Positions 1,698 to 58,185 of a stretch of 64,000 nt of DNA are shown here, piece after piece (the first letter of the stretch is position 1; every line of letters begins with the position of its first letter). The DNA lies in NCBI RefSeq assembly GCF_030684315.1, contig NC_081369.1:10206035-10270034 (forward strand), in the 5' to 3' direction. A model generated the notes under the pieces. It did no database searches and was not told the DNA's origin. It worked only from the letters and a program-made list of their open reading frames with translations. The translations under genes and the position numbers were made by a program. This DNA comes from Stegostoma tigrinum (lineage: Eukaryota).

Positions 1698-1802
1698 CAG
1701 ATGATGCCTTTAACTCGATGCTCGTCCAAATGGTTATTAACTGTAAAATTACCAGCATGCTACCTGCCCATCTAGAGATGAGCAGATAATTGAGATCTTT
1801 AC
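1698..1802 (-). pseudogene. Copy C: transmembrane exon with TM Arg, acceptor mutated
   Basis: 105-nt exon, GKDLNYLLISRWAGSMLVILQLITIWTSIELKASS, same length and phase as the A/B TM exons. Donor GTGAG is intact; acceptor is TCG instead of TAG. Confidence 0.85.
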
Positions 1803-11917: not shown

Positions 11918-12214
11918 CTCGATTGAGGGTGCAGCTTTCGCTTACAGGCAGCTTAAGGCAGGCCTGCGATACCTGGCAGGTATAAACTGCACCGCTTTGC
12001 ACCGGCTGTGCTTCTTCCAACGAAGTAGTAACTTCATAAAGTCCATCCACAGTCTTGTTATTCACAGTTTCTATTCTGGCCAGATTTTCGAAAGCATCCC
12101 TTGGTCAGGCTATTCCTAAACTTTCCGGATAAAGGGCTGTCGTTTTGCACCTGAATTTCCAACAAATCCCTGAAAATCATGCCCACGGAAGGGATTTCAG
12201 GATAGTTGGCCGAG
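11918..12214 (-). pseudogene. Copy C: Ig C1-set exon with two in-frame stops
   Basis: 297 nt reading xRPTILKSLPWA*FSGICWKFRCKTTALYPESLGIA*PRDAFENLARIETVNNKTVDGLYEVTTSLEEAQPVQSGAVYTCQVSQACLKLPVSESCTLNR, colinear with the A/B C1 exon. Stops at 12179-12177 and 12107-12105 (the latter at the conserved C-strand Trp). Acceptor is TAA; donor GTAAG is intact. Confidence 0.9.
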
Positions 12215-14494: not shown

Positions 14495-15190
14495 GAATGT
14501 TACACCTAGCACTTGATATGTGAGCAAGTGGCATTTCCCTGCTGCATACAATGTACCAGAGCTGCAAACTCTTAGCAGATCAGTCAGCGCAGATGGAAGA
14601 TAAATCCGAGTACCTTTCCAAAGACTGCGTTCTTTGATTGAAACTTGCTAAAGTTCAAAAGTGTAACATTTTGAGACAGAGAGTGGAAAAAATGAGGTCG
14701 ATGATGGGTGGAACACAGAGGAGATGAAGATATTGGAAAGTTACTGGTACGGAGTGAAAGATACTGCTGATGGGTGAAAAGAAACAATGATGCAGATTAT
14801 GTGCCATTGATCATGGGCACTGCTGAAAAACTGTAACAAAAACGAATGTTACACCTAGCACTTGATATGTGAGCAAGTGGCATTTCCCTGCTGCATACAA
14901 TGTACCAGAGCTGCAAACTCTTAGCAGATCAGTCAGCGCAGATGGAAGATAAATCCGAGTAACTTTCCAAAGACTGCGTTCTTTGATTAAAACTTGCTAA
15001 AGTTCAAAAGTGTAACATTTTGAGACAGAGAGTGGAAAAAATGAGGTCGATGATGGGTGGAACACAGAGGAGATGAAGATATTGGAAAGTTACTGGTACG
15101 GAGTGAAAGATACTGCTGATGGGTGAAAAGAAACAATGATGCAGATTATGTGCCATTGATCATGGGCACTGCTGAAAAACTGTAACAAAA
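14495..15190 (+). repeat. Tandem duplication, 347-bp units (14495-14841 / 14844-15190), period 349
   Basis: Both units start gaatgttacacctagcacttg. Two substitutions seen. Confidence 0.92.
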
Positions 15191-15830: not shown

Positions 15831-18150
15831 TACAGCAACTAAATGTACCTGACCAAATTATGCCAAGTAGAGTCACGTACTGTACTGGAACAGTTATGAA
15901 CATCGTCAGACATAAACGAAAAGTTCGTTGGCTTCTTGTTGTAAATGAGAATGGTGTCCTGAATGGTTTGGTCGGAAAGACTTATCAAGCCTATGACCGT
16001 GACCTGCGACATCACATGACGAACATTGAGTTCCAGAAGTCTGAGAAGTGAGAGGTTCCTTGACCACTGATAGCTGAGAAATTTCCATCTGAAGACAATG
16101 TGTTTCTGACACTACCGGCGCGTTGCTTTCTAATCAGTTATGATCAACAACTTTCCAGCCTTGATTCGATCTGAAAATAATGATTCAAGTCGCAGGCATG
16201 GCCATTTTCCCAGTAACTCACCTAAAGTATTCACCTATATGCAAGACGTTAGGAGTGGTAAAATATTTAGACCTGGGAACTTCAAATCCATGATGATGTC
16301 AAGCAGTAGTAAATGGAGTTAGGGCTATTAATCTTGATGAATTCCCTTTCTCCGCTTTAGGATTGTCGAATGTGATATTATTTTGACTCGCGGTAGAAGT
16401 GACATTCGAGACCCCTGTTCATCTGGTTCACAGTTACTAGCCTTAATTTCGCAGCATGAAAAACACAACGTATTATTCAGGGTGCTGTGTGTCGGCCTTT
16501 CCGGATGGACGTGCGAGGAGAAGCGGAATAAAGAGACCATCATTTGCTGATAGTGATGAAAAGAAAAGATAACAATGCAAGTGGGAACAAAAACAGAAAT
16601 TGCTGGAGAAACTCCGGGTCTGGAATCATCTGTGAGAAGAACGCAAAGTTAACGTTTCAAGTTCGACTCTTCATCAAATTGAAGTGGCACTTTGCTTATT
16701 CACAGTATTCAGCTTTTAGTATTAGCCATGTCTAATCCAACTTGAAACTCCTTTCATTTATTTCTGTTTTGTTTACTTATTAAACTCTCTTTTCAATTTC
16801 GCTATGACTATTCATGTTTATGTCCTCTTGTTATACATTCTATCACAAGCGGAAACATTTTCTCTGGAAATGATCCACACAGCTAGATCCTTTCATAATA
16901 TCAATTACCTTGCTCAGGTCATCCGTAGCATTTCGTTGTTCTTCAAATTAATTTCAAAGCTAGCCATTGATAAGATGGTAGCACCCTCACACCTGCCTAA
17001 GGGTAAGGTTGTCGAGAGTCCCATTTCAAGACGAGAGTAACAGATATCTGAGTTGACGTTCCAGTGTATGACTGAGGAAGTCCTGCTGTAGGAAACGTTG
17101 TTTTTCCGATGGTATGTTAAGCCAAATCCCAGTCCACCCTCCTGTGTTATTGCGAAGGATCCAATGCCACCGCTTTGAAGTCGAGGTAAGGAGTTAACCC
17201 AAGTGTCTTAAATGTTCAAGGACCGCAACACCAGCACCCCACCCCTCCCCCGATACTAAAAGCTGAATACTGTGAATAAGCAAAGTGCCACTTCAATTTG
17301 ATGAAGAGTCGAACTTGAAACGTTAACTTTGCGTTCTTCTCACAGATGATTCCAGACCCGGAGTTTCTCCAGCAATTTCTGTTTTTGTTCCCACTTGCAT
17401 TGTTATCTTTTCTTTTCATCACTATCAGCAAATGATGGTCTCTTTATTCCGCTTCTCCTCGCACGTCCATCCGGAAAGGCCGACACACAGCACCCTGAAT
17501 AATACGTTGTGTTTTTCATGCTGCGAAATTAAGGCTAGTAACTGTGAACCAGATGAACAGGGGTCTCGAATGTCACTTCTACCGCGAGTCAAAATAATAT
17601 TACATTCGAAAATCCTAAAGCGGAGAAAGGGAATTCATCAAGATTAATAGCCCTAACTGCAATTCCATTTACTACTGCTTGACATCATCATGGATTTGAA
17701 GTTCCCAGGTCTAAATATTTTAACACTCCTAATGTCTTGCATATAGGTGAATATTTTAGGTGAGTTACTGGGAAAATGGCCATGCCTGCGACTTGAATCA
17801 TTATTTTCAGATCGAATCAAGGCTGGAAAGTTGTTGATCACGACTGATTAGAAAGCAACGCGCCGGTAGTGTCAGAAACACATTGTCTTCAGATGGAAAT
17901 TTCTCAGCTATCAGTGGTCAAGGAACCTCTCACTTCTCAGACTTCTGGAACTCAATGTTCGTCATGTGATGTCGCAGGTCACGGTCATAGGCTTGATAAG
18001 TCTTTCCGACCAAACCATTCAGGACACCATTCTCATTTACAACAAGAAGCCAACGAACTTTTCGTTTATGTCTGACGATGTTCATAACTGTTCCAGTACA
18101 GTACGTGACTCTACTTGGCATAATTTGGCCAGGTACATTTAGTTGCTGTA
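15831..18150. repeat. Large near-perfect inverted repeat: arms 15831-16722 and 17253-18150, 530-bp spacer
   Basis: Mirror-image ORFs in the ORF track (e.g. 15906-16112 minus = 17869-18075 plus). A few substitutions and one 6-nt indel. Confidence 0.95.
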
Positions 18151-18484
18151 TGCTTCTGTATCAAAATCCGTGGTATCCTTTCTTACAAGATAGTGCAATG
18201 GTATTGCTTCGTATATTTAAATACTGTGCTGCTCCACTTCGCATGCTAAAACTTTCAACAGCTCTTGCATTTTACTTCGCGAAGTTCTTTTCCTGATGTA
18301 ATTTTGTTAAGCAGGGGACTGAAAGCTTGTCGGCTTAAGAGAGGAAGGCAGATTTGTGGCTACAATTAGAACAGCGATTACTGAATAGCCGAATAGGTGC
18401 GAGGGTCAGAACGGCCTACTCTTTCTCTGTGTGGTGTACACTGGTTTGCAAATATTATCATCGCTCTTCTTTCTCTTCTGATAG

Positions 18485-18790
18485 CCCCCGAAGCAACTTC
18501 GAGTAAAGTGAAACAGTTCCCCAAATTTGAGAACGTTAACAGAGGTGGGAATGTTTCCATGTTCTGCACATTTCCTATCTTTGAAGAAGCTCCTGATGTT
18601 TATTGGCGGAGACGGGGTGAGGAGTCGGTTCTGGAGCCAGACAGCAGAAAGCAATTCAATGCAAAAAGGGGAACAAGTTCTTTTTCAATCCTAAACGTGA
18701 GTTTCGCTGATGCCGGAGTGTATTTTTGTGAAGTAAAGCACCAGGGAAGGTGGATTGGAGATGGAGGTGGCACGCAGCTGACTGTTTATG
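18485..18790 (+). CDS. Gene A exon: germline-joined VJ-type Ig V domain (NKp30/NCR3- or SIRP-like IgSF receptor)
   Basis: Acceptor ttctttctcttctgatAG and donor GTAAG, phase 1/1. MFC(B strand), VYW(C strand), DAGVYFC(F strand) and J-like GDGGGTQLTV. Confidence 0.92.
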
Positions 18791-19621
18791 GTAAGGATCA
18801 TTGTGCCGGACAGGCTACTTTTCAGCTTTATTAGATACTTTATATCGCGGGACGAAAATTGTCCGAATTGCTTTTACTTGGGTTTGTACTTTCTTTGTCA
18901 TTGTACTTGTGTTAAATAGCAATTGATTCAGTCTCACAATATGAACACATGTCTGAGACCAATTTCACTTGCTTGCTGTCCTGATATTTGCAAGGGTTCT
19001 ACCTCGAAAAGTTTTATTTTTGTCCAGTTACAACTATTATCAAGCCAAGATACCGAAATAAAATAAAAGTTCAAATTTAGGTTTGAAATGAATCAATGCG
19101 CTAAGAGGACAACGTCAATTCAACGGGGCCAATGTGCGACAGTGGGATCAATTCTAACATCTCTTGGGTCTTATCTTTCTCCCTCCTTTATTTACACAAA
19201 TCCAGGGCTAAGGAATGATAGAATTCTGATTCTTGACTACGCACTTAATGCAGTTCTGATGGCCATAATATGTAATGAATCTTGCAAATTGATAATGATT
19301 TTAATTTATACTTGGAAAATTTCTGAAAAGTGTGATCGTAAAGAAAGCATTGAAATTGTTCTCAAGAGTTTCACAAATGATGGAAATTTAACATGGTCCC
19401 ATATATCAGGTTACATGACGCCTATACACAGATTTTCATCTATTAGAGGTAAAAATAGGGCTGATAAAAGCAGAGGGGGAAACGAGCCCAATAGGCAGAA
19501 TGAACTTAGATAAATTCAAAAACTCTGGAACTTCATAATGCCTCAGAGTTAGAATTTTCCATGTTGAATTCTGCATCTGTGCAGTTGTTATGAACTTCAC
19601 ACTGATCAGCAATTCATAAAA

Positions 19622-19960
19622 GCTACAGGGGAGGCGATGGCCTCGTAGTATTATGGCTGGCGTATTCATCCGGAGACCCAGATGAACGTTTGGGGACACA
19701 TGTTCAAATCCTGACACTGCAGACCACTCCAGCAATAAACATCAGGCATTAAGAATCAATTGTTAATTTTTGTGAAAATTCCATCTGTTTCACAATTTTT
19801 TTAGAGCAGCGACTGCCAACCTTTCCTGGTCTGACCTACATGTGACTCCAGCCCCACTGCAAAGTGGTTGACTCTTAACTGTCCTCTGGGCAGTTAGTGA
19901 TGGGCAATAGATACTGCCTGGCCAGCGAAGCCCTCGTCCCGTGAATGAGTAAAGAATAGG
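19622..19960 (+). mobile_element. tRNA-derived SINE in gene A intron, absent from the corresponding gene B intron
   Basis: gggaggcgatggcctcgtagtatta...gttcaaatcc head and LINE-type tail. Same family on the minus strand at about 34155-34590. Confidence 0.6.
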
Positions 19961-20641
19961 ATAGAGCCAGAGAAGCCGTTCCGATTAGTGGAGAGCAAGC
20001 ACAGGATGCGGATTTCAGATAATTTGCAAAATAGTAAGGTACCACGGTCGGAAAATCTTCCAAAGAAGCTGTTCGAGGATCTGGAGCGCACTGCGGAAGA
20101 ATCCGGTGCAATTGTGGTGTTCAAAAGGCAAAGTTAAGAAAGGGATGGAACCAACAACGTCAATTGCAGTGGGGTCTGGCAGCATTTGTGGAGAGAAATG
20201 GAGTTAAGGTTTCCAGTTTGGTTAGACTCTTCTTCACGAGATGTTTTGAGCATTGTGTGAGACAAAATATTTCGTACCACAAACCATCATACATGCAGTA
20301 TGGAGAGAGAGACTTCAGTGACAGACTGGCGTGTACTGCCTCCAATAGTTTGGTCAGGAATGCGACTGTCGCTAACCCCAACCCGGCTCCAGGATGTCAT
20401 TCAGAACACTGCCCCGGCCTCCCTCGTGTAACCAATCCTGGGAGATCCAACATCTTAGTTTATCATTTCACAAATTCCCACTATTTTGTTGTCCGGCTGC
20501 AACACTTCAACATTTCAAATTAAACGATAAAGAGCATGAGTATTGTCACTCTATGAACGTAACAGCGTCGCGGGTGCAGTCAAATGAGGATGTGCTCAAT
20601 TAAATTTAAACAAAACAGAAACTGTTTCTTTTTCCTTCAAG

Positions 20642-20935
20642 TGTCACCGTTGCCACTGAAAGTCGTTCAAGTTGAAGGGGTTTCTGCGGCTTCTGTGAAA
20701 CTGGTGTGTAAAACTGCTGCCTGTTACCCTGAACCTATCGGTATCTCCTGGCGAAGCGATGCTGCCGAAAATCTGACCGGAATACAAACGGTTATAAAGA
20801 CGGCAGATGGACTGTATGAGGTTTCCAGCTCTTTGGAAGAAACGCAGCCTGTGCGGAGCGGAGAGGTTTATACCTGTCTGGTGTCACATGTTTCCCTTCC
20901 TGAACCCGCCAGTGTCAACTTCACCGTCAATCCAG
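20642..20935 (+). CDS. Gene A exon: Ig C1-set domain
   Basis: Acceptor ttccttcaAG and donor GTAAG, phase 1/1. LVCKTAACYPEPIGISW, DGLYEVSSSL and YTCLVSHVSL are C1-set hallmarks. Confidence 0.92.
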
Positions 20936-21319
20936 GTAAGGCAGGAAACACTGGCAGCAGTGAGAGGGACCAGTGCTCCAAGCAGCGTTTAGAGAGGCAG
21001 CATGCAGCTGAGCAGCTTCCAAACCAGAGGGAGGGGTTGAGCGTGGAAAGTATCAACTCGCAAAGCGCCACAAATGGGAAAAGAATCAAGATATTCCTCA
21101 ATTTTTTAATCGAGTAAAATGAAATTACAACTAAAATGTTCTGTGATAATCCCTCCTAGGTCCTATGCCACATATCCTGAATATGTGAAAATATAGATAC
21201 GTTCAGCTGGTTTCTCAGCACTGTGAACTCTAACTCTCTCGCCCTAAACGCCTACGCCTCTCTAACTGTCTCGTTTCACACGCTCCCTAAAATCTGCCTT
21301 AACTTTTTCTGACTCATAA

Positions 21320-24346: not shown

Positions 24347-24451
24347 GTGAAGATCTCAACTATGTGCTGATCGCTCGATGGGCAGGTGGCATGCTGGCAA
24401 TCTTACTATTGATAATCATTTTGACAAGCCTCGAAGTGAAGGCATCAGCTG
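24347..24451 (+). CDS. Gene A exon: transmembrane segment with Arg (activating-type)
   Basis: cctgtAG...G/GTAAG, 105 nt, GEDLNYVLIARWAGGMLAILLLIIILTSLEVKASA. Arg codon at 24376-24378. Confidence 0.88.
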
Positions 24452-32799: not shown

Positions 32800-32852
32800 G
32801 CGTTAGAAGATATTCTGCAAAAGTGGATGAAGCTCAATACCTGGTAAAGTGA
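32800..32852 (+). CDS. Gene A short cytoplasmic, probably terminal, exon GVRRYSAKVDEAQYLVK*
   Basis: Acceptor ttcttttctttcctttAG has the same context as the gene B exon at 56570, phase 1. Homologous to B GISAEVNQAEKA. Possible donor GTAAAG after 32843, or read-through to TGA at 32850-32852. Confidence 0.72.
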
Positions 32853-48700: not shown

Positions 48701-49119
48701 CTTTTATGTCTGAAATATGTTTGTGATAGTTCCAGTACAGTACATGACTCTACTTGGAATAATTTGGTCAGGTACATTTCGTTGCTGTATGCCCCTTGTC
48801 AAAATCCGTTATATCCTATTTTAGAAGATAATGAAATGCATCTGTAATGTTCTGCATCAGTAAACACTGTGCTGCTCCACTTCGCATGCTAAAACTTTCA
48901 ATAGCTCTTGCATTTTACTTCGCGAAGTTCTTTTCCTGATGTAATTTTGTTAAGCAGGGGACTGAAAGCTTGTCGGCTTAAGAGAGGAAGGCAGATTAGA
49001 ATTAGAACAGCTACTATTGAATAGCCGAGAGGTGCGAGGGACAGAACGGCCTACTCTTTCTCTGTGTGGTGTACACTGGTTTGCAAATATTATCATCGCT
49101 CTTCTTTCTCTTCTGATAG

Positions 49120-49425
49120 CCCCCGAAGCAACTTCGAGTAAAGTGAAACAGTTCCCCAAATTTGAGAGCGTTAACAGAGGTGGGAATGTTTCCATGTTCT
49201 GCACATTTCCTATCTTTGAAGAAGCTCCTGATGTTTATTGGCGGAGACGGGGTGAGGAGTCGGTTCTGGAGCCAGACAGCAGAAAGCAATTCAATGCAAA
49301 ACGGGGAACAAGTTCTTTTTCAATCCTAAAAGTGAGTTTCGCTGATGCCGGAGTGTATTTTTGTGAAGTAAAGCACCAGGGAAGGTGGATTGGAGATGGA
49401 GGTGGCACGCAGCTGACTGTTTATG
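49120..49425 (+). CDS. Gene B exon: germline-joined VJ-type Ig V domain
   Basis: 306 nt, AG/GTAAG, phase 1/1. Three nt differences from the gene A V exon. Confidence 0.92.
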
Positions 49426-49555
49426 GTAAGGATCATTGTACCGGACAGGCTACTTTTCAGCTTTATTAGATACTTACGCTTTTTCTAAATCTCGAACTTT
49501 CTTCGAATTGCTTTTACGCGGGTTTATATTTTCGTTGTCATTGAGCACGTGTTAA

Positions 49556-49772
49556 AACTGCAGATGTTGGAGTCAGAGTAGATACAATGTGGAGCTGGAG
49601 GAAGACAGCAGGTCAGGCAGCTTCAGAGAAGGGCCGACGTTTCGGGCCTAGACCCTTCATTAGAACTTCACGAGTCTTTTTGAAGGATCTCGGCCCGAAA
49701 CGTCGACTCTCCTACTCCTCTGATGCTGCCTGACCTGCTGTGTTCGTCCAACTCCACGCTGTATGGATTCCA
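49556..49772. mobile_element. Older palindromic PLE terminal insertion specific to the gene B V-C1 intron
   Basis: Inverted PLE termini flanked by gttaaa. The corresponding gene A site (about 18910, gtgttaaatagc) is empty. Confidence 0.7.
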
Positions 49773-51078
49773 GTTAAATAACAACTGGTTCACTTTCGCC
49801 ATTTGACCATTTTTGTCTAGAAGCAATTTCACTCGCTTGCTCTCCTGATGGTTGAAAGGGTTCTATCTCCAACAGTTTTATTATAGTCCAGTTGCAATTG
49901 TTTTCAAACCATGATACCGGTAGAATAAAAGTTTAAATTTTGGTTTCAAAAGAACCAGTGAGCGAAGAAAACAAAATCCCTTCTTGCCAAAGTAACGACG
50001 CCAGTATGTGACAATGAATTTATGCAAATCGAGGGTTAAAGAATGACGGAATTCTGAGTCTTAGCTATGCACTTAATGCAGTTCTGTTGGCCATAAGATT
50101 TAAGGAAACTTACAAATTGGTAATGACCTTAATTGATATTTCGAAAATTTCGGGAAGATCTGCATGTAAAGAAAACATTCAAATTGTTTTCAATAATATC
50201 ACAAACAATTCAAAGTTAACAGATCCATATATCAGGTACATAACGCCTATAGATTGTGTGGACACTGTTTCACATCTGTGAGAGGGAAAAATAGGCCGGT
50301 TAAAAGCAGGTTAGAAAAGAGTCCAAGAGACGGAAAGAATTAATAAAAGCTAAGGGTAGTGTGACGCCAGAGAAGCCGTTCAGATTGGTGAAAGGAAAAA
50401 CAGAGGACACACATTTATGATAACGTGCTATACTGTTAGGCACGACAGTCGGAAATATTTAAGTAAAGCTTTTCAAGGATGTGGATTGCACTGCGGGAGC
50501 CTCCGGTGCAACCGTGGCGTTCAAAGGCAAATTTATAATTTCCTAAAAAACAGATTAAAAGCTGTTAAGGATGTGGTGAAAAAGATGAAACCAACAACCA
50601 GAGCGGCAGTAGATCTGGCTGCATTTGTGGGGAGAAATGGAATTAACGTTTCCAGTTTGGTGTGACTCTTCTTCACGAGATGTTTTGAGCAGTGTACGAA
50701 GCAAAATATTTAGTGCCGCAAAGCTTTATTACTGCAGTCAGGAGAGAGAGGATTCAGTGACAGACTGGCGTGTACTGCCTCCGATAGATTTGCTCAGGAA
50801 TCCGACTGTTGCTAGCACCAATCCCGCTCCACGACCTCATTCAGAACAATGTCCCTGCCTCCCTACATGTAACCAGTCCTGGGAGATCCAACCTTTTTGT
50901 TTATCTTTTCAAATATTCGTACAATTTTGCTACAATTTAAAATTTTAATTTTAAAATTAAACGATAAAGAGCATGAGTATTGTCACTGTATGAACGTAAC
51001 AGCGTCGCGGGTGCAGTCAAATGAGGATGTGCTCAATTAAATTTAAACAAAACAGAAACTGTTTCTTTTTCCTTCAAG

Positions 51079-51372
51079 TGTCACCGTTGCCACTGAAAGT
51101 CGTTCAAGTTGAAGGGGTTTCTGCGGCTTCTGTGAAACTGGTGTGTAAAACTGCTGCCTGTTACCCTGAGCCTATTGGTATCTCCTGGCGAAGAGATGCT
51201 GCCGAAAATCTGACCGGAATACAAACGGTTATAAAGACGGCAGATGGACTGTATGAGGTTTCCAGCTCTTTGGAAGAAACGCAGCCTGTGCGGAGCGGAG
51301 AGGTTTATACCTGTCTGGTGTCACATGTTTCCCTTCCTGAACCCGCCAGTGTCAACTTCACTGTCAATCCAG
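51079..51372 (+). CDS. Gene B exon: Ig C1-set domain
   Basis: 294 nt, AG/GTAAG. Four nt differences from gene A C1, giving one amino acid change (S/R). Confidence 0.92.
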
Positions 51373-51559
51373 GTAAGGCAGGAAACATTTGCAGTAGTGA
51401 GAGGGATCAGTGCTCCAACTTGGATTTATAGAGCAGATATATGGCTGAACAGCTGTCCAAATCAAAGAGAGGGGGTGTATGTGGACTTCATTAATTCCAG
51501 AGCAGTATAATGGAAAAGAAATTACAATGTTCAAAATGATTTTCAGTGTAGGATAGAAA

Positions 51560-53190
51560 ATATTCCCCTGAGGAGGTCTGAAAGGGAAGTGATGTGTGAG
51601 CTGCTCGAAAGTTAAAGATCATTCTTCATCAAAATCTTAGCGAGTAAAATGGAATTATACCTACAAATATATTGTAGGAACTTAGGGAAGAAATTGCCCA
51701 GCGTGGGAGAGATCTCCATATCATCTATAACCACTGGTGAGGTGCTGATGGACGAGCGGGTGGATAATATTGTGCCTTTACTTAAGAAAAGAGAAGCCTG
51801 GGAATTATAGACCATTGAATGTGATATCAGTTGAGTAAGTTGTTGGAGGGGGTTTTGAGAGACAGGGTTTGCATGCATTTGGAAAGGCAAGGACTGATTA
51901 GGGATAGTCAGCCGGACTTTGTGTCCGAGAAAATGTGGGCTACTTGGCCAAGAAGATAGATGGAGGGCAGAGTGGTAAATGTTCTGCTTGGTAGACTGGT
52001 CACTAAAGTTAGATTGCATAGCGGGGATCTTGCCCATTGGATACAAAATTGGCTTGATGGTAAAATAGACAGAGGGTAGAGTTGGAGGGTTGTTTTCAGA
52101 CTAGAGATCTGTCACCAATGGTGTTCCACTAGCATTGATGTTGGATCCACTGTTGTTTGTTGTTTATATAAAAAATTTTGATGAAAACTTAGAAAGCATG
52201 ATAAATTTGCAGATGGCATCAAAATTGGTGGTTTCATGGGCAGTGAAAATGGTTATCTAAGATTACAAAGGGATCATGATCAATTGAGCCAATGGGGTAA
52301 TGAATGGCAGATGGAGTTTAATTTCGGTAAATGCAATGTTTTTTACTTGGCAAGACGAACAATTGCAGGATTTATACAATTAATTAGTAGGACCCTGTGG
52401 ATTGTTGCCAAACAAAGATACCTAGGGGTTATGGTATATATTTCTTTGAAAGTTGCATTGCATGAACACAGAGTGGTAAAGAAGGCATTTGGCATGCTTG
52501 TCTTCATTGCTCAGACTATTGAATAAAGAAGTTGGGACATCATGTCATGGTTGTACAGAAGATGGTGAAGCTGCTTTAGAAGTATTGTGCACAGTTCTGG
52601 TCACCCAGTTATAGCAAGGATATTATTAAATTAGAGAGGGCGCTGGAAAGATTTATAAGGATATTACCTGGACCGGGGGATTTGAGTGAAAGGGAGAGGG
52701 TGGATAAACTTGGATTTTTTTTCACTACAGCATAGGTGGTTGAGGGATGACCTTACAGATTAGATTAGATTAGATTCCCTACAGTGTGAAAACACGCCCT
52801 TCGGCCCAGCAAGTCCACACTGTCCTTTGGAGCATCCCACCCAGACCCATCCCCCTATAACACACACACCCCTGAACACTACTGGAAGAAATTGATTAAA
52901 TCATGAGCAGTGTCGATAATGTGAATTGCAAACCTCGTTTTCTTGTGATTGGGGAGTTTGAGCCTGGAGGGCATATTTTTCAGGTCTTAGAGTCTACATT
53001 TTCACACAGGGTGTGGTTGGTATGGAATGAACTGTTGGGGAAATGGCAGATGCAGGCACAATTACAATATTTGGACAGGTGAATGAATAGGAAATTGTTA
53101 GACACAGGTAAATGAGATTAGTTTAGTTTGGGAAACTTGGTCGGTATAGATAATTTGTACTGAAGGGTCTGTTTCCATGTTGTATGGTCC
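51560..53190 (+). mobile_element. Decayed CR1 LINE 3' part in gene B intron
   Basis: LDPLLFVVYI, KFADG and WQMEFNFGKCNV remnants plus a CR1 3' tail. Confidence 0.75.
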
Positions 53191-53239
53191 AAAACTTAAT
53201 AAAAGCTGAATAAGTGATAATAGGATCTATGAGTAGGAG

Positions 53240-54745
53240 CGAATATGTGAGATGCAATTGAAAACAACACATGTCAGGACAAGTGAGGTGGGTAAAAAAA
53301 AATGGAAGGACGAATCAGACTCTAAAGTTCTTTCACTCCATGTTGAGTCCCTGAATGTTTCAGGGTCCCCAAGCAGAAAACTAAATGTTGTTCTTCAAGC
53401 TTGTGCTGAGGTTCACTGGAACACTGCAGCAAGTATGTATTGAAGTGATCGGCAACTCTAGGTCATATTTGTAGAAAGAATGTAAATATTCTGCAAAACT
53501 GTCACACAGCCTGCAATTCGACTCCACAGTGTAGAAGAGACCACATTGTGAGAAATGATACAGTCGGCTATAGTGAGTCAAGTGCAGATAAATCTGCTTC
53601 ACCAAGAATAATATAATTCATAGAACATGGAAGCTACTTCTGGAGCTTTGGATAGTGAGGAGGAAGGGAGAAAACATCCATAAACATGCAGTCATCACAC
53701 CTTTTGCCATTGCATGTGAAGGAGTGGGCCAAAGTGTCCCAGAGGCAATGGTCCAGCAGAAGGCTGGCAAGGGAGGGGAGGGTACATGTGTCTGATGGTG
53801 GCTAATGATCTTTTGAATGTGGATGCTGGTGAAATGGTAGGTGAGCACCAGGAGGCCCTTGACATTGTTGAACAACGGAGAGGTAAGACTGAGGGTCAAA
53901 GTGCAAAAGATGGGTCAAATGCAGCTAAAGGCTCTGAGGACTACAGTGGCAGACATCCACCTTGAGGAGAAAGGTGGCTTTTCTGAAACCCCTGCAGAAG
54001 TTGGCACATCAGAACAAATGTGTTGGAGATAGAGGAAGTGGGTGAATGTGTTGGAGTCCTGGCAGAAGCAGGGTATGAGGATGTAAAGATGAGGTAATTG
54101 TGGGAGTGATGGATTTGTAACAGATATCAGTGGCCAACCCATTCCCAGAAATTGATGTGTTTCCAGTTCAGAGCCAGAAAGGGAAGCAGCACTGATAATT
54201 TCCATCAATATGCTAAAGAAAGAGTTGTGGGTGGGAACTGCAATAGGATTGGAACAAGGAATGTTCCATGTATCCCACAAAGTGACAGGCATAACTGGAG
54301 CCCGTTCAGGTATCCATGGCCACATTACGTTAAGGTATGGGTTGTTTTTAATACAGTAACACGTTCTCAACTACTTTTTGGCTTACTATCACATTATATG
54401 GATTGCTTTCAGTGCAGCTCACCCATTTTTCCTGTTCTTAGTTCGTATTATCATTTTGTCAGCTTTCCGTCTTTCCTAGCCTCCTCTCCATAATGTTCCA
54501 GTTGACTTACCCCATTCACATCTCTCTTTTTGGGCTCCATCTTCACGCATCCACTCACCTATCTCTTCGCCAATTTCGACTTTAGCATAAATGCCACGTG
54601 TTCCTAGCTGCCGACAGTACTGGTGGAGAGCTACAGGGCCGAAATGTCATTCTGCTTTCTTCCCCCAGATGTTGCCAGACCTGCTGAACTTCGCCCGCAA
54701 TTTGTTTTTGTTTCAGATTTCCAGCACCCGTAATTATTTGTGTTG
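53240..54745. mobile_element. Decayed Penelope-like element, positionally equivalent to those upstream of the A and C TM exons
   Basis: PLE RT/GIY-YIG remnants on minus and a terminal repeat remnant on plus. Confidence 0.65.
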
Positions 54746-55364
54746 TTAAGATATATCAGTGCGAGGAGTTAGGTTTAGACCTCTGTTTAAGCACTTAAAG
54801 TATGGAAATGTACGTGTCCATCTGGTATCTCCGCATTATAAACTTCAGATTTCCGGCCCGAAGAACCTTCGCACGTCTTTGCCCCTCTCTCCACTTCCAC
54901 ACTCCCGAACTGTCTCCACCTCCTATTATTACTTTTTGGATCAGGATTGCATTTGATAACGCTGCCATGGAGTCCTCTGGGACGTTTTGCCATGTCATCG
55001 GGTTTTTAGAAAAATGTAATTAACTGCAGAAGGCTGATGAAGGGAAGTCCCATGTAGCACAGCACGTTAATTTTGAAGTAAGTAGGACCTTTTACTGTTG
55101 ACAAACAGTCCAGAGAGAAGCTTCTTGTGTCCTTCTGAAATTGTTCCCTCCATAAATTTGCATTACCGGCCTATAACTGGTTTGTCATTTGAAACACATT
55201 GTCATCCTTGTATATTTACTACCCACAGAAAAGATATTTATGGAACGCTGTGGTCCTGGGATACTCTTTTGCATCTCACCGTCCTGTGTCTACTCCACGA
55301 TGCTCTGCATGTAAGTCCCACTGCGCTATACAGTTTCTTATTCAAATATTTATCAATTCTGTAG

Positions 55365-55469
55365 GTAAAGCTGGCACACTTCCTTTGGTGTTTGGATGGA
55401 CAGGTGGCGTGTTGACAATTTTACTGTTGATATTCGTTTTGACAAGACTCAAATTAAAGACATCATCTG
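55365..55469 (+). CDS. Gene B exon: uncharged transmembrane segment
   Basis: tctgtAG...G/GTAAG, 105 nt, GKAGTLPLVFGWTGGVLTILLLIFVLTRLKLKTSS. Gly (55394-55396) at the position of the gene A Arg. Confidence 0.88.
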
Positions 55470-55599
55470 GTAAGATTCTTTATTATTTCGCCGAATATTG
55501 TCAGTTTCTAAGGCCCTATGTCTTTTTATCTTTATTTTTAAAAATGATTTTAGCGTCTATAAAAAGTCAAAGCGCAGATGAACAGTGATTAACTATTTG

Positions 55600-55911
55600 A
55601 TCAGATTCTCTACAATTCAGAAACAGGCCCTTTGGCTCAATAAGTCCACGCCGACCCTCATAGCATCCCACCCAAACCCATACCCTATTACCCACCTAAC
55701 CTACACATCCACTAACACTACGGGCAATTTAGCATGGCCAATCCACCCAGCCTACACATTTTGGACTGTGGGAGGAAACCGGACCATCCGAAGGAAACCC
55801 ATGCAGGCACGGGGAAAATGTGCAAACTTCCCACGGACAGTCGCCCAACGGTGGAATCAAGTCTGGGTTCCTCGCGCTGTGAGCTTGCTAACCACTGAAT
55901 CACCGTGCCAC
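55600..55911 (-). mobile_element. HE1-type V-SINE
   Basis: Same structure as 10855-11180. Confidence 0.8.
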
Positions 55912-56328
55912 CTTTTTTTTCAAAACCTCATCTTCTGTTTCTCAACTTCTGTTTGTAGAAATTGTAGAGGAATAACGAGCATTTTAAAGAATGAAGTTAC
56001 TATTACAAGACCGCTATGCGGTAGTTCAATAGGACATTATAAACCAAATATGTGGTTTTCTATGTGGATATTTCACCTTCCGATTCAAGATATTTACTCG
56101 ATTTGTACACAAACTCCTGTACTTAAATTAGTAGAGTCCAGGCCTTGAAATATGTTAATTGTGGAATGGTACAGCTTCAATAGCAGTCCAGATTTTCTTT
56201 CAAACGTAACTTTGCAAATGCAAAACGGTCAGTCGACTTATTAACAGTTGGCCACCATCCCTCAGAAGTCTGTTCGATTGAGTATAGCGTCACAAGAGAC
56301 ACTAGAGATACTAGGTTAAAATTGTATC

Positions 56329-56495
56329 AGAGATAATGGGAACTGCAGATGCTGGAGAATCCAAGATAATAAAATGTGAGGCTGGATGAACACAGCAGGC
56401 CAAGCAGCATCAGGTCTAGGCCCGAAATGTCAGCTTTTGTGCTCCTGAGATGCTGCTTGTCCTGCTGTGTTCATCCAGCCTCACATTTTATTATC
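56329..56495. mobile_element. Palindromic PLE terminal insertion with 14-bp flanking duplication
   Basis: agagatactaggtt at 56304-56317 and 56496-56509. Confidence 0.8.
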
Positions 56496-56569
56496 AGAGA
56501 TACTAGGTTGCTGGTTTCGCGTGTACTCTCAGCAAATGATTCAAGTCAGGCTCCTTTTGTTTCCTTTAG

Positions 56570-56604
56570 GCATTTCGGCGGAAGTGAATCAAGCTGAAAA
56601 GGCG
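56570..56604 (+). CDS. Gene B cytoplasmic exon 1 (GISAEVNQAEKA)
   Basis: ttttgtttcctttAG acceptor and GTAGG donor, phase 1/0. Joins the TM exon in frame to the terminal exon. Confidence 0.78.
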
Positions 56605-58065
56605 GTAGGATAACAATGCCTTTTATGTTTTGATAAGAGTGGTTAAGAAAAAATAGCAAGAGTGACTGCAACATCTGAGAACATTAATTAAAACCCACGG
56701 AATCGTAGAACTCAAACAGCCTGTGCGGTACTTTGAAAATAACAATCTAATCAGTGCAATTTCTCACTCTTTACACCGAACCCCTTATTCTTGCGAATAT
56801 TTAATCGCCCGTATTCGTTCTCGATCCGAAGGAAAGAAGTCGCACGTTGTCTAGTCTCTCCAACGGACGGCAGTCCCTCACCCACAATTGCAGAAAATCT
56901 CTTCTGCATCCTTTCCCCTCACCCTTCAAAATGTAGCGGTCAGTATGCAGCACGATGGTTCAACTGAGTTTTAACCAATGGCTTACAGTGCTAAACATAA
57001 ATGATTTGCTTTGGCATACTATAGCATTATTTATAAAGGTCAAGATAACCCTTTGCATTTAGTGAAACATACACTTCCGATTAGGGTACCAGTTGGGTCA
57101 ATCGGCTGGCCTGTGTCAGATTAATGAACACAGCATGGAATTTGAACACTTTCTGACCTGTTCAGGCAGGGCCTGCTGGCTTGCCACACTTTAGGATGAT
57201 TGTATAGGCCATTGAGAAAAGATGATTCTAGGGATCGGTGATCTTATCTATGAAATTAGGTTGTAAGAGTTGCATTGGTCACTGTCACGCAAAGGAGAGT
57301 GAGGATGTGATACAGGGGTCCAAGAGTGTGACAGGTTTAGGTATAATAGACAAGTGAAAAAAACTAATCTCAGTCATTGTACAGAGACTACATGCTAGAG
57401 GTTTTGGGAAAGAGGTTGTGGAATGCTGGGATTTTGGTTTTAAAACTACCTGTGATAACGATACAGAACTTAACGGCCAAGAGGTTACAAGAAACTGAGC
57501 TGAACGCTGATTACAAAAGGAAATCAGAGGGGCACTTTAAATAAATTTGCAGACCTTCACTGCTGAAGCATAGGAGTGGGACAGACTGAAGCGCGCAGGG
57601 GAAAGAGACGAAAAGCTTGATTGACTGTTCCCTCTGCCTCCAACTGACTCCACATATTTTTAAAAGTTGATTGTAACTTATTGAGGGGATGTGGGTGTCA
57701 CTGGCTGGCCAGCATTTAATCTCCATACACAATGACCCTGAAACTGTAGCAGCTCCTTTGGTAGAGGTACATGCATCGTGATATTAAGAAGTCAGTTCTA
57801 TAATCGACCCAGCAACAGTGCAAGAAAAGTTACATTAAAAACCAGCTCTGGATAGTGTGCAACTGGGAAGTGAATGTGCAGGTGATAGCAGTTTCATGGA
57901 ACAACTGTTTGCATGCTTGCTGATGAAAGATGGCACAGGCTTAGGTGGTGCTTTCAAAGTGGTGATTGACAGCAGGAAATTTCATTCCATTCTTATTATT
58001 AAGCTTAATTGCGTCAAGCGATGAACTGATGAACTAACGCATTATATTAAATTTTACTTTCACAG

Positions 58066-58185
58066 ATAGAACAAAGCTATGAAGATAATACAGTGTCTTA
58101 TGCCAAGTTGGATCTTGGTAATTTGAAGCAAGGAACAAAACCTAAACAAGCAGACAACTGTACAGTATATGCAGATGTTAAGTGA
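58066..58185 (+). CDS. Gene B terminal exon with ITIM and ITSM
   Basis: ttttactttcacAG acceptor, phase 0. IEQSYEDNTVSYAKLDLGNLKQGTKPKQADNCTVYADVK*; VSYAKL at 58093-58110 and TVYADV at 58162-58179. Confidence 0.85.
   Translation: MEQSYEDNTVSYAKLDLGNLKQGTKPKQADNCTVYADVK

What the first reader, a model, noticed from the sequence alone, without database searches (positions are those of the whole stretch)
18485..20935. Non-rearranging VJ + C1 architecture resembling a pre-RAG antigen receptor chain
A single exon encodes the whole V domain including the J-like G-x-G-T-x-L-T-V strand (YFCEVKHQGRWIGDGGGTQLTV), and I found no RSS. It is followed by one true C1-set exon (C..YP...W, DGLY..SSL, YTCxVxHxSL) and a TM, which is the layout of a TCR chain. 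C1-set domains are restricted to few families (Ig, TCR, MHC, B2M, tapasin, SIRP, some B7 members). Germline VJ-C1 genes are therefore candidate relatives of the gene invaded by the RAG transposon. No stalk Cys for interchain bonding is present.
Basis: partly seen in the sequence, partly recalled or inferred. Interest (0 to 1): 0.72.

Follow-up and report, generated by a model that had tools for sequence, protein, structure and literature searches.

The report
Shark activating paired immune receptor
This shark gene encodes a non-rearranging, antibody-like surface protein whose two outer domains are 98-99% identical to those of a neighbour that carries inhibitory-type tail motifs, so it is likely the activating half of an on/off receptor pair from a large, little-studied shark family, and probably not a special relic of the antibody ancestor.

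Summary
A single exon (18485-18790) encodes a V domain with a J-like end, followed by a C1-set exon (20642-20935). There is no RSS nearby. The leader (18078-18132) and TM exon (24347-24451) lie outside the given coordinates.

The gene (A) is not a lone pre-RAG relic. It is one of about 48 paralogs on contig C19, which is not the MHC contig, and close relatives were found only in sharks, rays and chimaeras. Its TM carries an arginine and no ITIM exon was found. Gene B, 30 kb downstream, has a neutral TM plus ITIM and ITSM motifs. The V and C1 exons of A and B are 99% identical, against 82-86% in flanking introns and 77% in the TM exon, which points to exon-limited gene conversion. Two more such pairs exist in the cluster.

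Best reading: the activating half of a SIRP/CEACAM-style paired receptor. The V domain is shortened (Cys-Cys 54 against 64-77 in other V domains of this genome). Trees do not join the family to Ig, UrIg or NCR3, but do not reject that either (AU p 0.07 and 0.17). Nine literature searches found no description. Expression, ligand and adaptor are untested.

The parts
18078..18132 (+). Gene A leader exon (18 codons + 1 nt, phase-1 donor)
   Evidence: same position and motif as leaders of paralogs L004-L006; frame check
18485..18790 (+). Gene A single VJ exon; shortened V domain (Cys-Cys spacing 54), G-x-G-T-x-L-T-V end
20642..20935 (+). Gene A C1-set exon (extra Cys in place of the usual F of FYP, shared with the Chiloscyllium proteins P0001 and P0003)
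24347..24451 (+). Gene A stalk/TM exon with Arg near the outer end of the TM (activating type); no stalk Cys
32800..32852 (+). Gene A short cytoplasmic exon (donor after 32843; stop at 32850-32852 if read through); no ITIM exon found between 20936 and 47900
   Evidence: its flanks align to those of gene B's first cytoplasmic exon
18407..18804 (+). Tract nearly identical to gene B (3 differences), bracketing the V exon: inferred gene-conversion tract
20517..20950 (+). Tract nearly identical to gene B (5 differences), bracketing the C1 exon: inferred gene-conversion tract
48717..48771 (+). Gene B leader exon
49120..49425 (+). Gene B VJ exon, 303/306 nt identical to gene A
51079..51372 (+). Gene B C1 exon, 290/294 nt identical to gene A
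55365..55469 (+). Gene B TM exon without a charged residue
56570..56604 (+). Gene B first cytoplasmic exon
58066..58185 (+). Gene B last exon with ITIM-type VSYAKL and ITSM-type TVYADV
   Evidence: matches the tail of Chiloscyllium P0003, E 2e-13
15831..16722 (-). Recent inverted copy (99% over 892 aligned nt) of gene A's upstream region and leader exon (17253-18150)
   Evidence: about double contig depth in both runs laid
11922..12209 (-). Broken C1 exon (stops) of a third, opposite-strand family member; no V exon found for it in the window
1698..1802 (-). Arg-type TM exon, probably of the broken opposite-strand member (ends approximate)

Best explanation
Gene A encodes a germline, non-rearranging type I membrane protein (leader, shortened VJ domain, one C1 domain, arginine-bearing TM, short tail) that is likely the activating half of a paired innate immune receptor, whose likely inhibitory half is gene B, 30 kb downstream, with nearly the same two outer domains, a neutral TM and ITIM/ITSM-type motifs. 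Shown: exon structure, the TM Arg, B's tyrosine motifs, identity of A and B confined to the V and C1 exons, and about 48 paralogs in two clusters plus one outlier. Inferred: A signals through an ITAM adaptor of the FcR-gamma/CD3-zeta type; B recruits SHP phosphatases; gene conversion keeps both ectodomains on the same ligand, so that A would act as a counter-receptor when a microbe exploits B. Expression, ligand and cell type are untested.
For: (1) A vs B identity: V exon 303/306, C1 exon 290/294, flanking non-coding stretches 82-86%, leader 85%, TM exon 77.5%. Synonymous differences are 1 and 3, against about 10 and 12 expected at intron divergence (P 2e-4 and 2e-3), so purifying selection alone does not explain it. 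(2) Chiloscyllium P0003 is equally far from A and B in V (63 and 62 of 77) and C1 (78 and 79 of 97) but closer to B in the TM exon (24 vs 18 of 34), the incongruence expected from conversion. (3) Two more matched pairs: C19 9.917 Mb (Arg) vs 9.869 Mb (neutral TM, ITIM exon), V exon 95% vs 70% just upstream; and 9.30 Mb (Arg) vs 9.61 Mb (neutral TM, ITIM exon), V 99.7%, diverging to about 70% behind C1. (4) Of 37 genes whose downstream DNA I read, 9 have an Arg inside the TM (read by eye) and 13 have a tyrosine-motif tail exon (one weak, one with a stop); only 1 gene (L094) has both. (5) Two zeta/FcR-gamma-family TM exons with the Asp exist in the genome. TM Arg pairing with these adaptors is described for NKp30, NKp46 and LRC receptors (PMC6514059 and PMC6557307, passages). 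(6) Exon-limited conversion between ITIM and activating genes is described for Xenopus and human CEACAMs (PMC5112662, passages). (7) Run X1 contigs carry B's three C1 letters at half depth, so both copies exist as DNA.
Against: There are no RNA data. The TM lacks the NxxR motif of LRC-type activating TMs (PMC6557307), so the adaptor is a guess. Gene A's tail exon lies 8 kb behind the TM exon and its terminal structure is inferred. One family gene (L094) has both an Arg and tail motifs. A crude automatic tally of 123 database proteins gave 12 Arg-only, 5 Arg+motif, 47 neutral+motif, 28 neutral-only and 31 without TM, with visible misclassifications. dN/dS among five close paralogs is below 1 for V and C1 in all 10 pairs, so there is no domain-wide sign of a pathogen arms race. 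A and B lie in the same orientation, whereas PMC5112662 links conversion to opposite orientation. The third pair looks like an unequal-crossover hybrid rather than conversion. Only 10-20 kb behind each paralog's C1 was read, so tail exons may have been missed.
Confidence: 0.75

Rival explanations
1. The family descends from the same VJ-C1 gene lineage that the RAG transposon invaded; it is a germline sister group of Ig/TCR that later acquired paired signalling.
For: VJ and C1 architecture with phase-1 single-exon domains and a split leader. The family profile's top PDB matches are UrIg2 (116.8 bits over three stretches), Ig chains and SIRP-alpha (86.7). A clade of family + IgL + UrIg-like V domains is not rejected, AU p 0.074. 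The family is older than the shark/chimaera split (Callorhinchus members).
Against: Not on the MHC contig C44 nor on the contigs carrying Ig/TCR/UrIg-type C1 domains. Flanked by NUDIX_2, gp78 (G2BR) and BBS2 genes, a block I recall as human 16q13. V Cys-Cys spacing is 54-59 in 25 of 25 family rows against 64-77 in 15 measurable outgroup rows; the fold model assigns no strand between C and D. No F/W before GxG, and the motif is lost in some members (L017, L024, L030). NCR3-like, not this family, falls next to IgL/UrIg in both V trees, at weak support. In the C1 tree the family is split from all Ig/TCR/UrIg/MHC/tapasin rows at 96/95. UrIg/UrIg2 are the published, synteny-backed candidates (PMC12227049).
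Confidence: 0.1
2. The family is the cartilaginous-fish orthologue of the SIRP cluster, moved to another chromosome and reduced to one C1 domain.
For: VJ + C1 + ITIM tail or charged TM. The ESM Atlas lists SIRP-alpha clusters at 0.95-0.96 for member P0004. SIRP-alpha and SIRP-gamma are among the family profile's PDB hits. RefSeq auto-names many members SIRPA-like.
Against: One C1 exon per gene in the members read, not two. Arg near the outer TM end instead of the mid-TM Lys of SIRP-beta1 (recalled). Not beside either SEP-domain (NSFL1C/UBXN2-type) gene, which lie on C23 and C5. No tetrapod SIRP among the 71 profile hits: the first non-chondrichthyan hits are tapasin-related and MHC II proteins at E >= 7e-11 (a word-limited search). 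RefSeq also names members B7H6-like, tapasin-like, IgL-like and MHC-II-like, so the labels carry little weight.
Confidence: 0.12
3. Gene A is a decaying duplicate or a ligand-type molecule (B7H6-like) without its own activating function.
For: B7-H6 ties for the best structural match of the two-domain model (Z 15.8, rmsd 3.3, 187 aligned, 28% identity; tied with Rst, NCAM2 and Neph1). The region holds a broken third copy and a fresh inverted duplication of A's promoter and leader; 9 of 48 V hits contain stops.
Against: All five exons are open with canonical splice sites. Arg-type TM with short tail recurs in several shark species (P0008, P0009, P0011, P0049, P0080, P0101). B7H6-like genes of this genome group with tapasin and butyrophilin, not inside the family.
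Confidence: 0.08

Closest known systems
SIRP family (SIRP-alpha inhibitory, SIRP-beta1 activating)
   Same: Non-rearranging VJ-type domain plus C1-set domain, clustered paired genes, ITIM tail versus charged TM (SIRP features recalled; similarity).
   Different: One C1 rather than two; shortened V; TM Arg rather than Lys; different genomic neighbourhood; no orthology shown.
Paired receptors kept alike by gene conversion (CEACAM1/3, Xenopus ceacam pairs; PMC5112662, passages)
   Same: Near-identity limited to ligand-binding exons, few synonymous changes, opposite signalling ends.
   Different: Here both V and C1 exons are homogenised, the activating gene uses a TM Arg instead of its own ITAM, and A and B are in the same orientation.
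NCR3/NKp30
   Same: Single-exon VJ domain and TM Arg (PMC6514059, passages).
   Different: NCR3-like genes form a separate set of 14 strong hits on the MHC contig C44, with Cys-Cys 70 and no C1 exon found in about 15 kb downstream of the one examined.
UrIg / UrIg2 (PMC12227049, abstract to discussion read)
   Same: Non-rearranging shark VJ followed by C1 domains, split leader.
   Different: UrIgs have 3 or more C1 domains, are disulfide-linked homodimers, are single genes linked to the MHC or the antigen-receptor complex, and fall in a different clade in the V and C1 trees.
PRARP / tetrapod VJ-C1 genes (Fu et al. 2019; Ohta et al. 2019; not held, recalled; titles seen in reference lists)
   Same: VJ-C1-TM with ITIM/ITSM.
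   Different: No PRARP sequence was available for a direct test. Separate VJ-C1 genes on C14 are better candidates and do not group with this family.

Membership tests
Rearranging or germline-joined Ig/TCR | RSS-flanked segments, or a joined V closely related to rearranging Ig/TCR V | tested here: not met
   No RSS near the V exon; 18-24% identity to Ig light chains; separate from two joined IgL V exons of this genome in the trees
Rearranging or germline-joined Ig/TCR | Full-length V domain with C'/C'' region and F/W-G-x-G | tested here: not met
   Cys-Cys 54 versus 69-73 in IgL; I-G-D-G-G-G instead of F/W-G-x-G
C1-set IgSF | C1-set profile match above cut-off and above C2/I-set | tested here: met
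   Pfam C1-set 36.7 bits (cut-off 21) versus C2-set_3 29.6
UrIg/UrIg2 | Three or more C1 domains; linkage to MHC or antigen-receptor complex | tested here: not met
   One C1 exon per gene in the window; C19 is neither C44 nor a contig with Ig/TCR C domains
NCR3/NKp30 | Single V domain without C1, MHC-linked | tested here: not met
   C1 exon present; NCR3-like set lies on C44
NCR3/NKp30 | V-domain clade membership | tested here: inconclusive
   Not grouped in the best tree; forced clade not rejected, AU p 0.173
SIRP | V-C1-C1 ectodomain (recalled) | tested here: not met
   V-C1 only in genes A and B; the two near-identical C1 domains of RefSeq model P0002 may be a fused model
SIRP | Synteny with NSFL1C (recalled) | tested here: not met
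   SEP-domain genes on C23 and C5, none on C19; which of the two is NSFL1C was not settled
SIRP | Phylogenetic orthology with tetrapod SIRPs; CD47 binding | not testable with these tools
   No tetrapod SIRP sequence was returned by any search
PRARP | Orthology with chicken/Xenopus PRARP | not testable with these tools
   Papers not held; no sequence returned
Paired activating/inhibitory receptors (functional class) | Clustered genes with near-identical ectodomains and opposite signalling ends | tested here: met
Paired activating/inhibitory receptors (functional class) | Adaptor association and phosphatase recruitment shown by experiment | not testable with these tools
   Needs cell assays

The most novel reading that the evidence does not exclude
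Cartilaginous fish keep a roughly 50-gene germline VJ-C1 repertoire, sister to Ig/TCR, that is their main NK/myeloid recognition system and is still being edited by exon-limited gene conversion between activating and inhibitory genes; it would show what antigen-receptor-like genes did before RAG.
Probability: 0.1. Interest if true: 0.8.

Novelty: new variant of a known kind. Interest (0 to 1): 0.42.

Why it matters
None of the papers I could read describes a large paired receptor family like KIR, Ly49, SIRP or NITR in sharks. This cluster is a concrete candidate, older than the shark/chimaera split. The A/B pair, with 99% identical ectodomain exons and opposite tails, is a ready test case for the pathogen-decoy model of paired receptors in the oldest living lineage with adaptive immunity. 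It also shows that VJ-C1 architecture alone does not mark a gene as a relative of the RAG target. The principle is known from mammals and frogs, so this extends rather than overturns current views.

Tried and rejected
- Single-sequence fold of P0001 was unusable (pLDDT 42.6). The 19-row alignment fold of this Chiloscyllium relative gave 82.3; gene A's own joined protein was not folded.
- Foldseek returned only Fab chains, and PDB profile searches were dominated by multi-domain proteins; neither ranks families. NKp30 and SIRP did not appear among the 50 VIA rows, which excludes nothing.
- No RNA holder was listed; this is no evidence either way.
- An upstream leader candidate near 17690 and a hydrophobic ORF near 17340 were rejected: the first has an in-frame stop in A, and the second lies in a short repeat.
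- No Ig domain was found in 15 stretches (150 kb of C23:33.81-33.97 Mb) around the SEP gene; this is too small a window to exclude a shark SIRP.
- In the C1 tree the two butyrophilin rows attach to gene A's C1 on a branch of 1.82, which I treat as a long-branch artefact.
- Tree rows are a subset: 15 of 30 fetched V loci plus 10 database members, 9 family rows, and 11 C1 loci plus 7 database members. No tetrapod rows and no TCR V rows were included.
- Upstream flank exons mostly failed Pfam (only GST, and Ndr weakly, among 9 exons tried), and NCBIfam gave nothing useful.
- The X3 contig joining B-type letters to A's intron may be a graph chimera and was not used.
- No complex prediction was run, since no binding claim is made.
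- Literature: searches found no description of this family. Ohta 2019, Ohta and Flajnik 2015, Flajnik 2012 and Flajnik 2023 were not held. Fu 2019, Kinlein 2021 and Dornburg and Yoder 2022 were not read. They or their supplements could already list these genes.

Full report
Observation. The window is G000:C19:10206035-10270034 in a 3.2-Gb genome. The nearest protein is from Chiloscyllium, 77% identical over the V exon, so this is a shark, probably a carpet shark. The V exon (18485-18790) and C1 exon (20642-20935) are open, have canonical phase-1 splice sites and score as Pfam V-set and C1-set above cut-off. A leader exon lies at 18078-18132, placed by comparison with paralogs. The TM exon is at 24347-24451 and a short cytoplasmic exon at 32800-32843. 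The exons join in frame to 268 codons with no stalk cysteine. No RSS lies near the V exon.

The neighbour. A second gene (B) runs from 48717 to 58185 in the same orientation. It has an uncharged TM and a last exon with VSYAKL and TVYADV, ITIM- and ITSM-type motifs (consensus recalled), matching the tail of Chiloscyllium RefSeq model P0003. Gene A has an arginine near the outer end of its TM. A search with 37 family tail peptides found a tail exon behind B but none in the 27 kb behind A's C1.

Gene conversion. A and B share 303 of 306 nt in V and 290 of 294 in C1, but only 82-86% in the adjoining non-coding stretches, 85% in the leader, 77.5% in the TM exon and 71% in the first tail exon. The near-identical tracts are 18407-18804 and 20517-20950, ending about 15 nt past each donor. 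Synonymous differences are 1 and 3 where about 10 and 12 are expected at 15% divergence. P0003 is equidistant from A and B in both Ig domains but closer to B in the TM exon. Contigs of run X1 join A's V exon to A's own intron and show B's three C1 letters at half depth, which argues against an assembly artefact; short-read contigs cannot phase this fully. A whole-gene recent duplication is excluded by the intron divergence, so exon-limited conversion is the simplest reading (inferred).

The family. The V exon finds 48 matches, all on C19: 24 at 2.13-2.96 Mb, 23 at 9.18-10.26 Mb and 1 at 13.68 Mb; 9 contain stops. The C1 exon finds 58 matches, 47 on C19. These counts are lower bounds. I read 10-20 kb behind C1 for 35 paralogs. 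With A and B, 9 of 37 have a TM arginine, 13 of 37 a tyrosine-motif tail exon, and 1 has both. Two further Arg/ITIM pairs have matched V exons. A profile search gave 71 proteins: the best 66 (E down to 2e-22) are from sharks, rays or Callorhinchus, apart from one unnamed record; the other 5 are tapasin-related, MHC II and Astyanax Ig proteins at E 7e-11 or weaker (only the 7994 best word-sharing candidates were scored). Ten divergent hits of the exhaustive search that I looked up were 10 of 10 chondrichthyan; that list stops at E 4e-40 and is crowded by multi-domain proteins, so distant orthologues in bony vertebrates are not excluded. RefSeq already models these genes, under inconsistent automatic names.

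Genomic place. All 36 MHC class I matches are on C44. Immediately downstream of the window lie exons matching NUDIX_2, the gp78 G2BR motif and BBS2. I name these NUDT21, AMFR and BBS2 and place them at human 16q13 from recall. Three long forkhead ORFs cluster at 51 Mb of C19, consistent with the FOXF1/C2/L1 cluster of 16q24 (recalled, not identified by sequence). Ig-, TCR- and UrIg-type C1 domains lie on other contigs. The cluster is therefore not in the MHC or the antigen-receptor complex that PMC12227049 and PMC10751288 use to argue for UrIg/UrIg2 as relatives of the RAG target.

Domain relationships. The family V domain is short: Cys-Cys spacing is 54-59 in 25 of 25 rows against 64-77 in 15 measurable outgroup rows. 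The model of relative P0001 (pLDDT 82) assigns no strand between C and D. Structural matches are tied among Rst, B7-H6, NCAM2 and Neph1 (Z 15.8-16.0). In V trees the family is one clade (89/88 with 25 rows; 97/96 with 9 rows), apart from the NCR3-like, IgL, UrIg-like, C14 VJ-C1 and B7H6/tapasin rows. These outgroup labels are my own reading of sequence and position. Forcing the family with IgL+UrIg (p 0.074) or with NCR3 (p 0.173) is not rejected. In the C1 tree the family is split from all Ig, TCR, UrIg, MHC and tapasin rows (96/95), with butyrophilins attracted on a long branch. The deep origin is unresolved.

Mechanism. Most likely (0.75) A is an activating receptor. Its TM arginine would pair with the aspartate of an ITAM adaptor; two such adaptor TM exons are in the genome, and the pairing is described for NKp30, NKp46 and LRC receptors (PMC6514059, PMC6557307). 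B would inhibit through SHP phosphatases. Conversion would keep A binding whatever binds B, as proposed for CEACAM pairs (PMC5112662). Against this: the NxxR motif is absent, dN/dS is below 1 in 10 of 10 paralog pairs, there are no expression data, and one family gene carries both signatures.

Papers seen. PMC12227049: parts 1-4 of 8 (abstract through discussion) and one passage. Passages only: PMC10751288, PMC11599192, PMC6557307, PMC5112662, PMC6795676, PMC6514059. PMC3964593: listing plus a term search of its one held supplement, with no hit for SIRP, NKp30, NCR3, ITIM or B7H6. The nine searches named under Tried and rejected found no description of the family, but the key J Immunol and Immunogenetics papers were not held. 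Earlier AI notes of this scan reached a similar family-level reading; they are not independent support.

Verdict. A real, intact gene with the stated architecture. It works like a SIRP/CEACAM-style paired receptor and fails the tested defining features of Ig/TCR, UrIg, NCR3 and SIRP. It is best called a chondrichthyan variant of a known kind of system. Interest 0.42.

Noticed in passing
window 15831-16722 vs 17253-18150: Fresh inverted duplication (99%) of gene A's upstream region including the leader exon, with a 530-nt spacer; it faces the broken opposite-strand gene (C1 at 11922-12209, Arg-type TM near 1698-1802).
   Followed up: partly
window 14495-14841 vs 14844-15190: Tandem direct duplication of about 347 nt at 99.4% identity.
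   Followed up: no
L155, L158, L187, L188 (G000:C14 31.99-32.14 Mb) and L190 (C14 38.97 Mb): Separate non-rearranging VJ-C1 genes; the three at 32 Mb carry an (E/H)-I-P-P-P CDR3-like motif like that described for CD28H (PMC11599192) yet have a C1 exon. Possible PRARP-type genes.
   Followed up: partly
L178, L179, L182 (G000:C20 34.37-34.48 Mb): Genes with many tandem C1-like exons beside B7H6-like V-C1 genes; one of these C1 domains is the best non-family match to the family C1 profile (63.8 bits).
   Followed up: no
L153, L154 (G000:C15 76.96-76.98 Mb): Two opposite-strand UrIg-like genes (single-exon V with Cys in the G strand, several C1 exons) on a contig that is neither the MHC contig nor the IgH-rich C55.
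   Followed up: partly
L183 (G000:C19 32.49 Mb): A single B7H6/tapasin-like V-C1 gene on the same chromosome as the family, outside its clade.
   Followed up: partly
G000:C19 9.22-9.61 Mb: Tandem units about 77 kb apart, each with a nearly identical V-C1 gene and a partial V; three read carry Arg-type TMs and the last carries a neutral TM with ITIM exon.
   Followed up: partly
G000:C44 11.26-11.94 Mb and 20.16-20.32 Mb: Fourteen NCR3-like V matches in two groups on the MHC contig.
   Followed up: no
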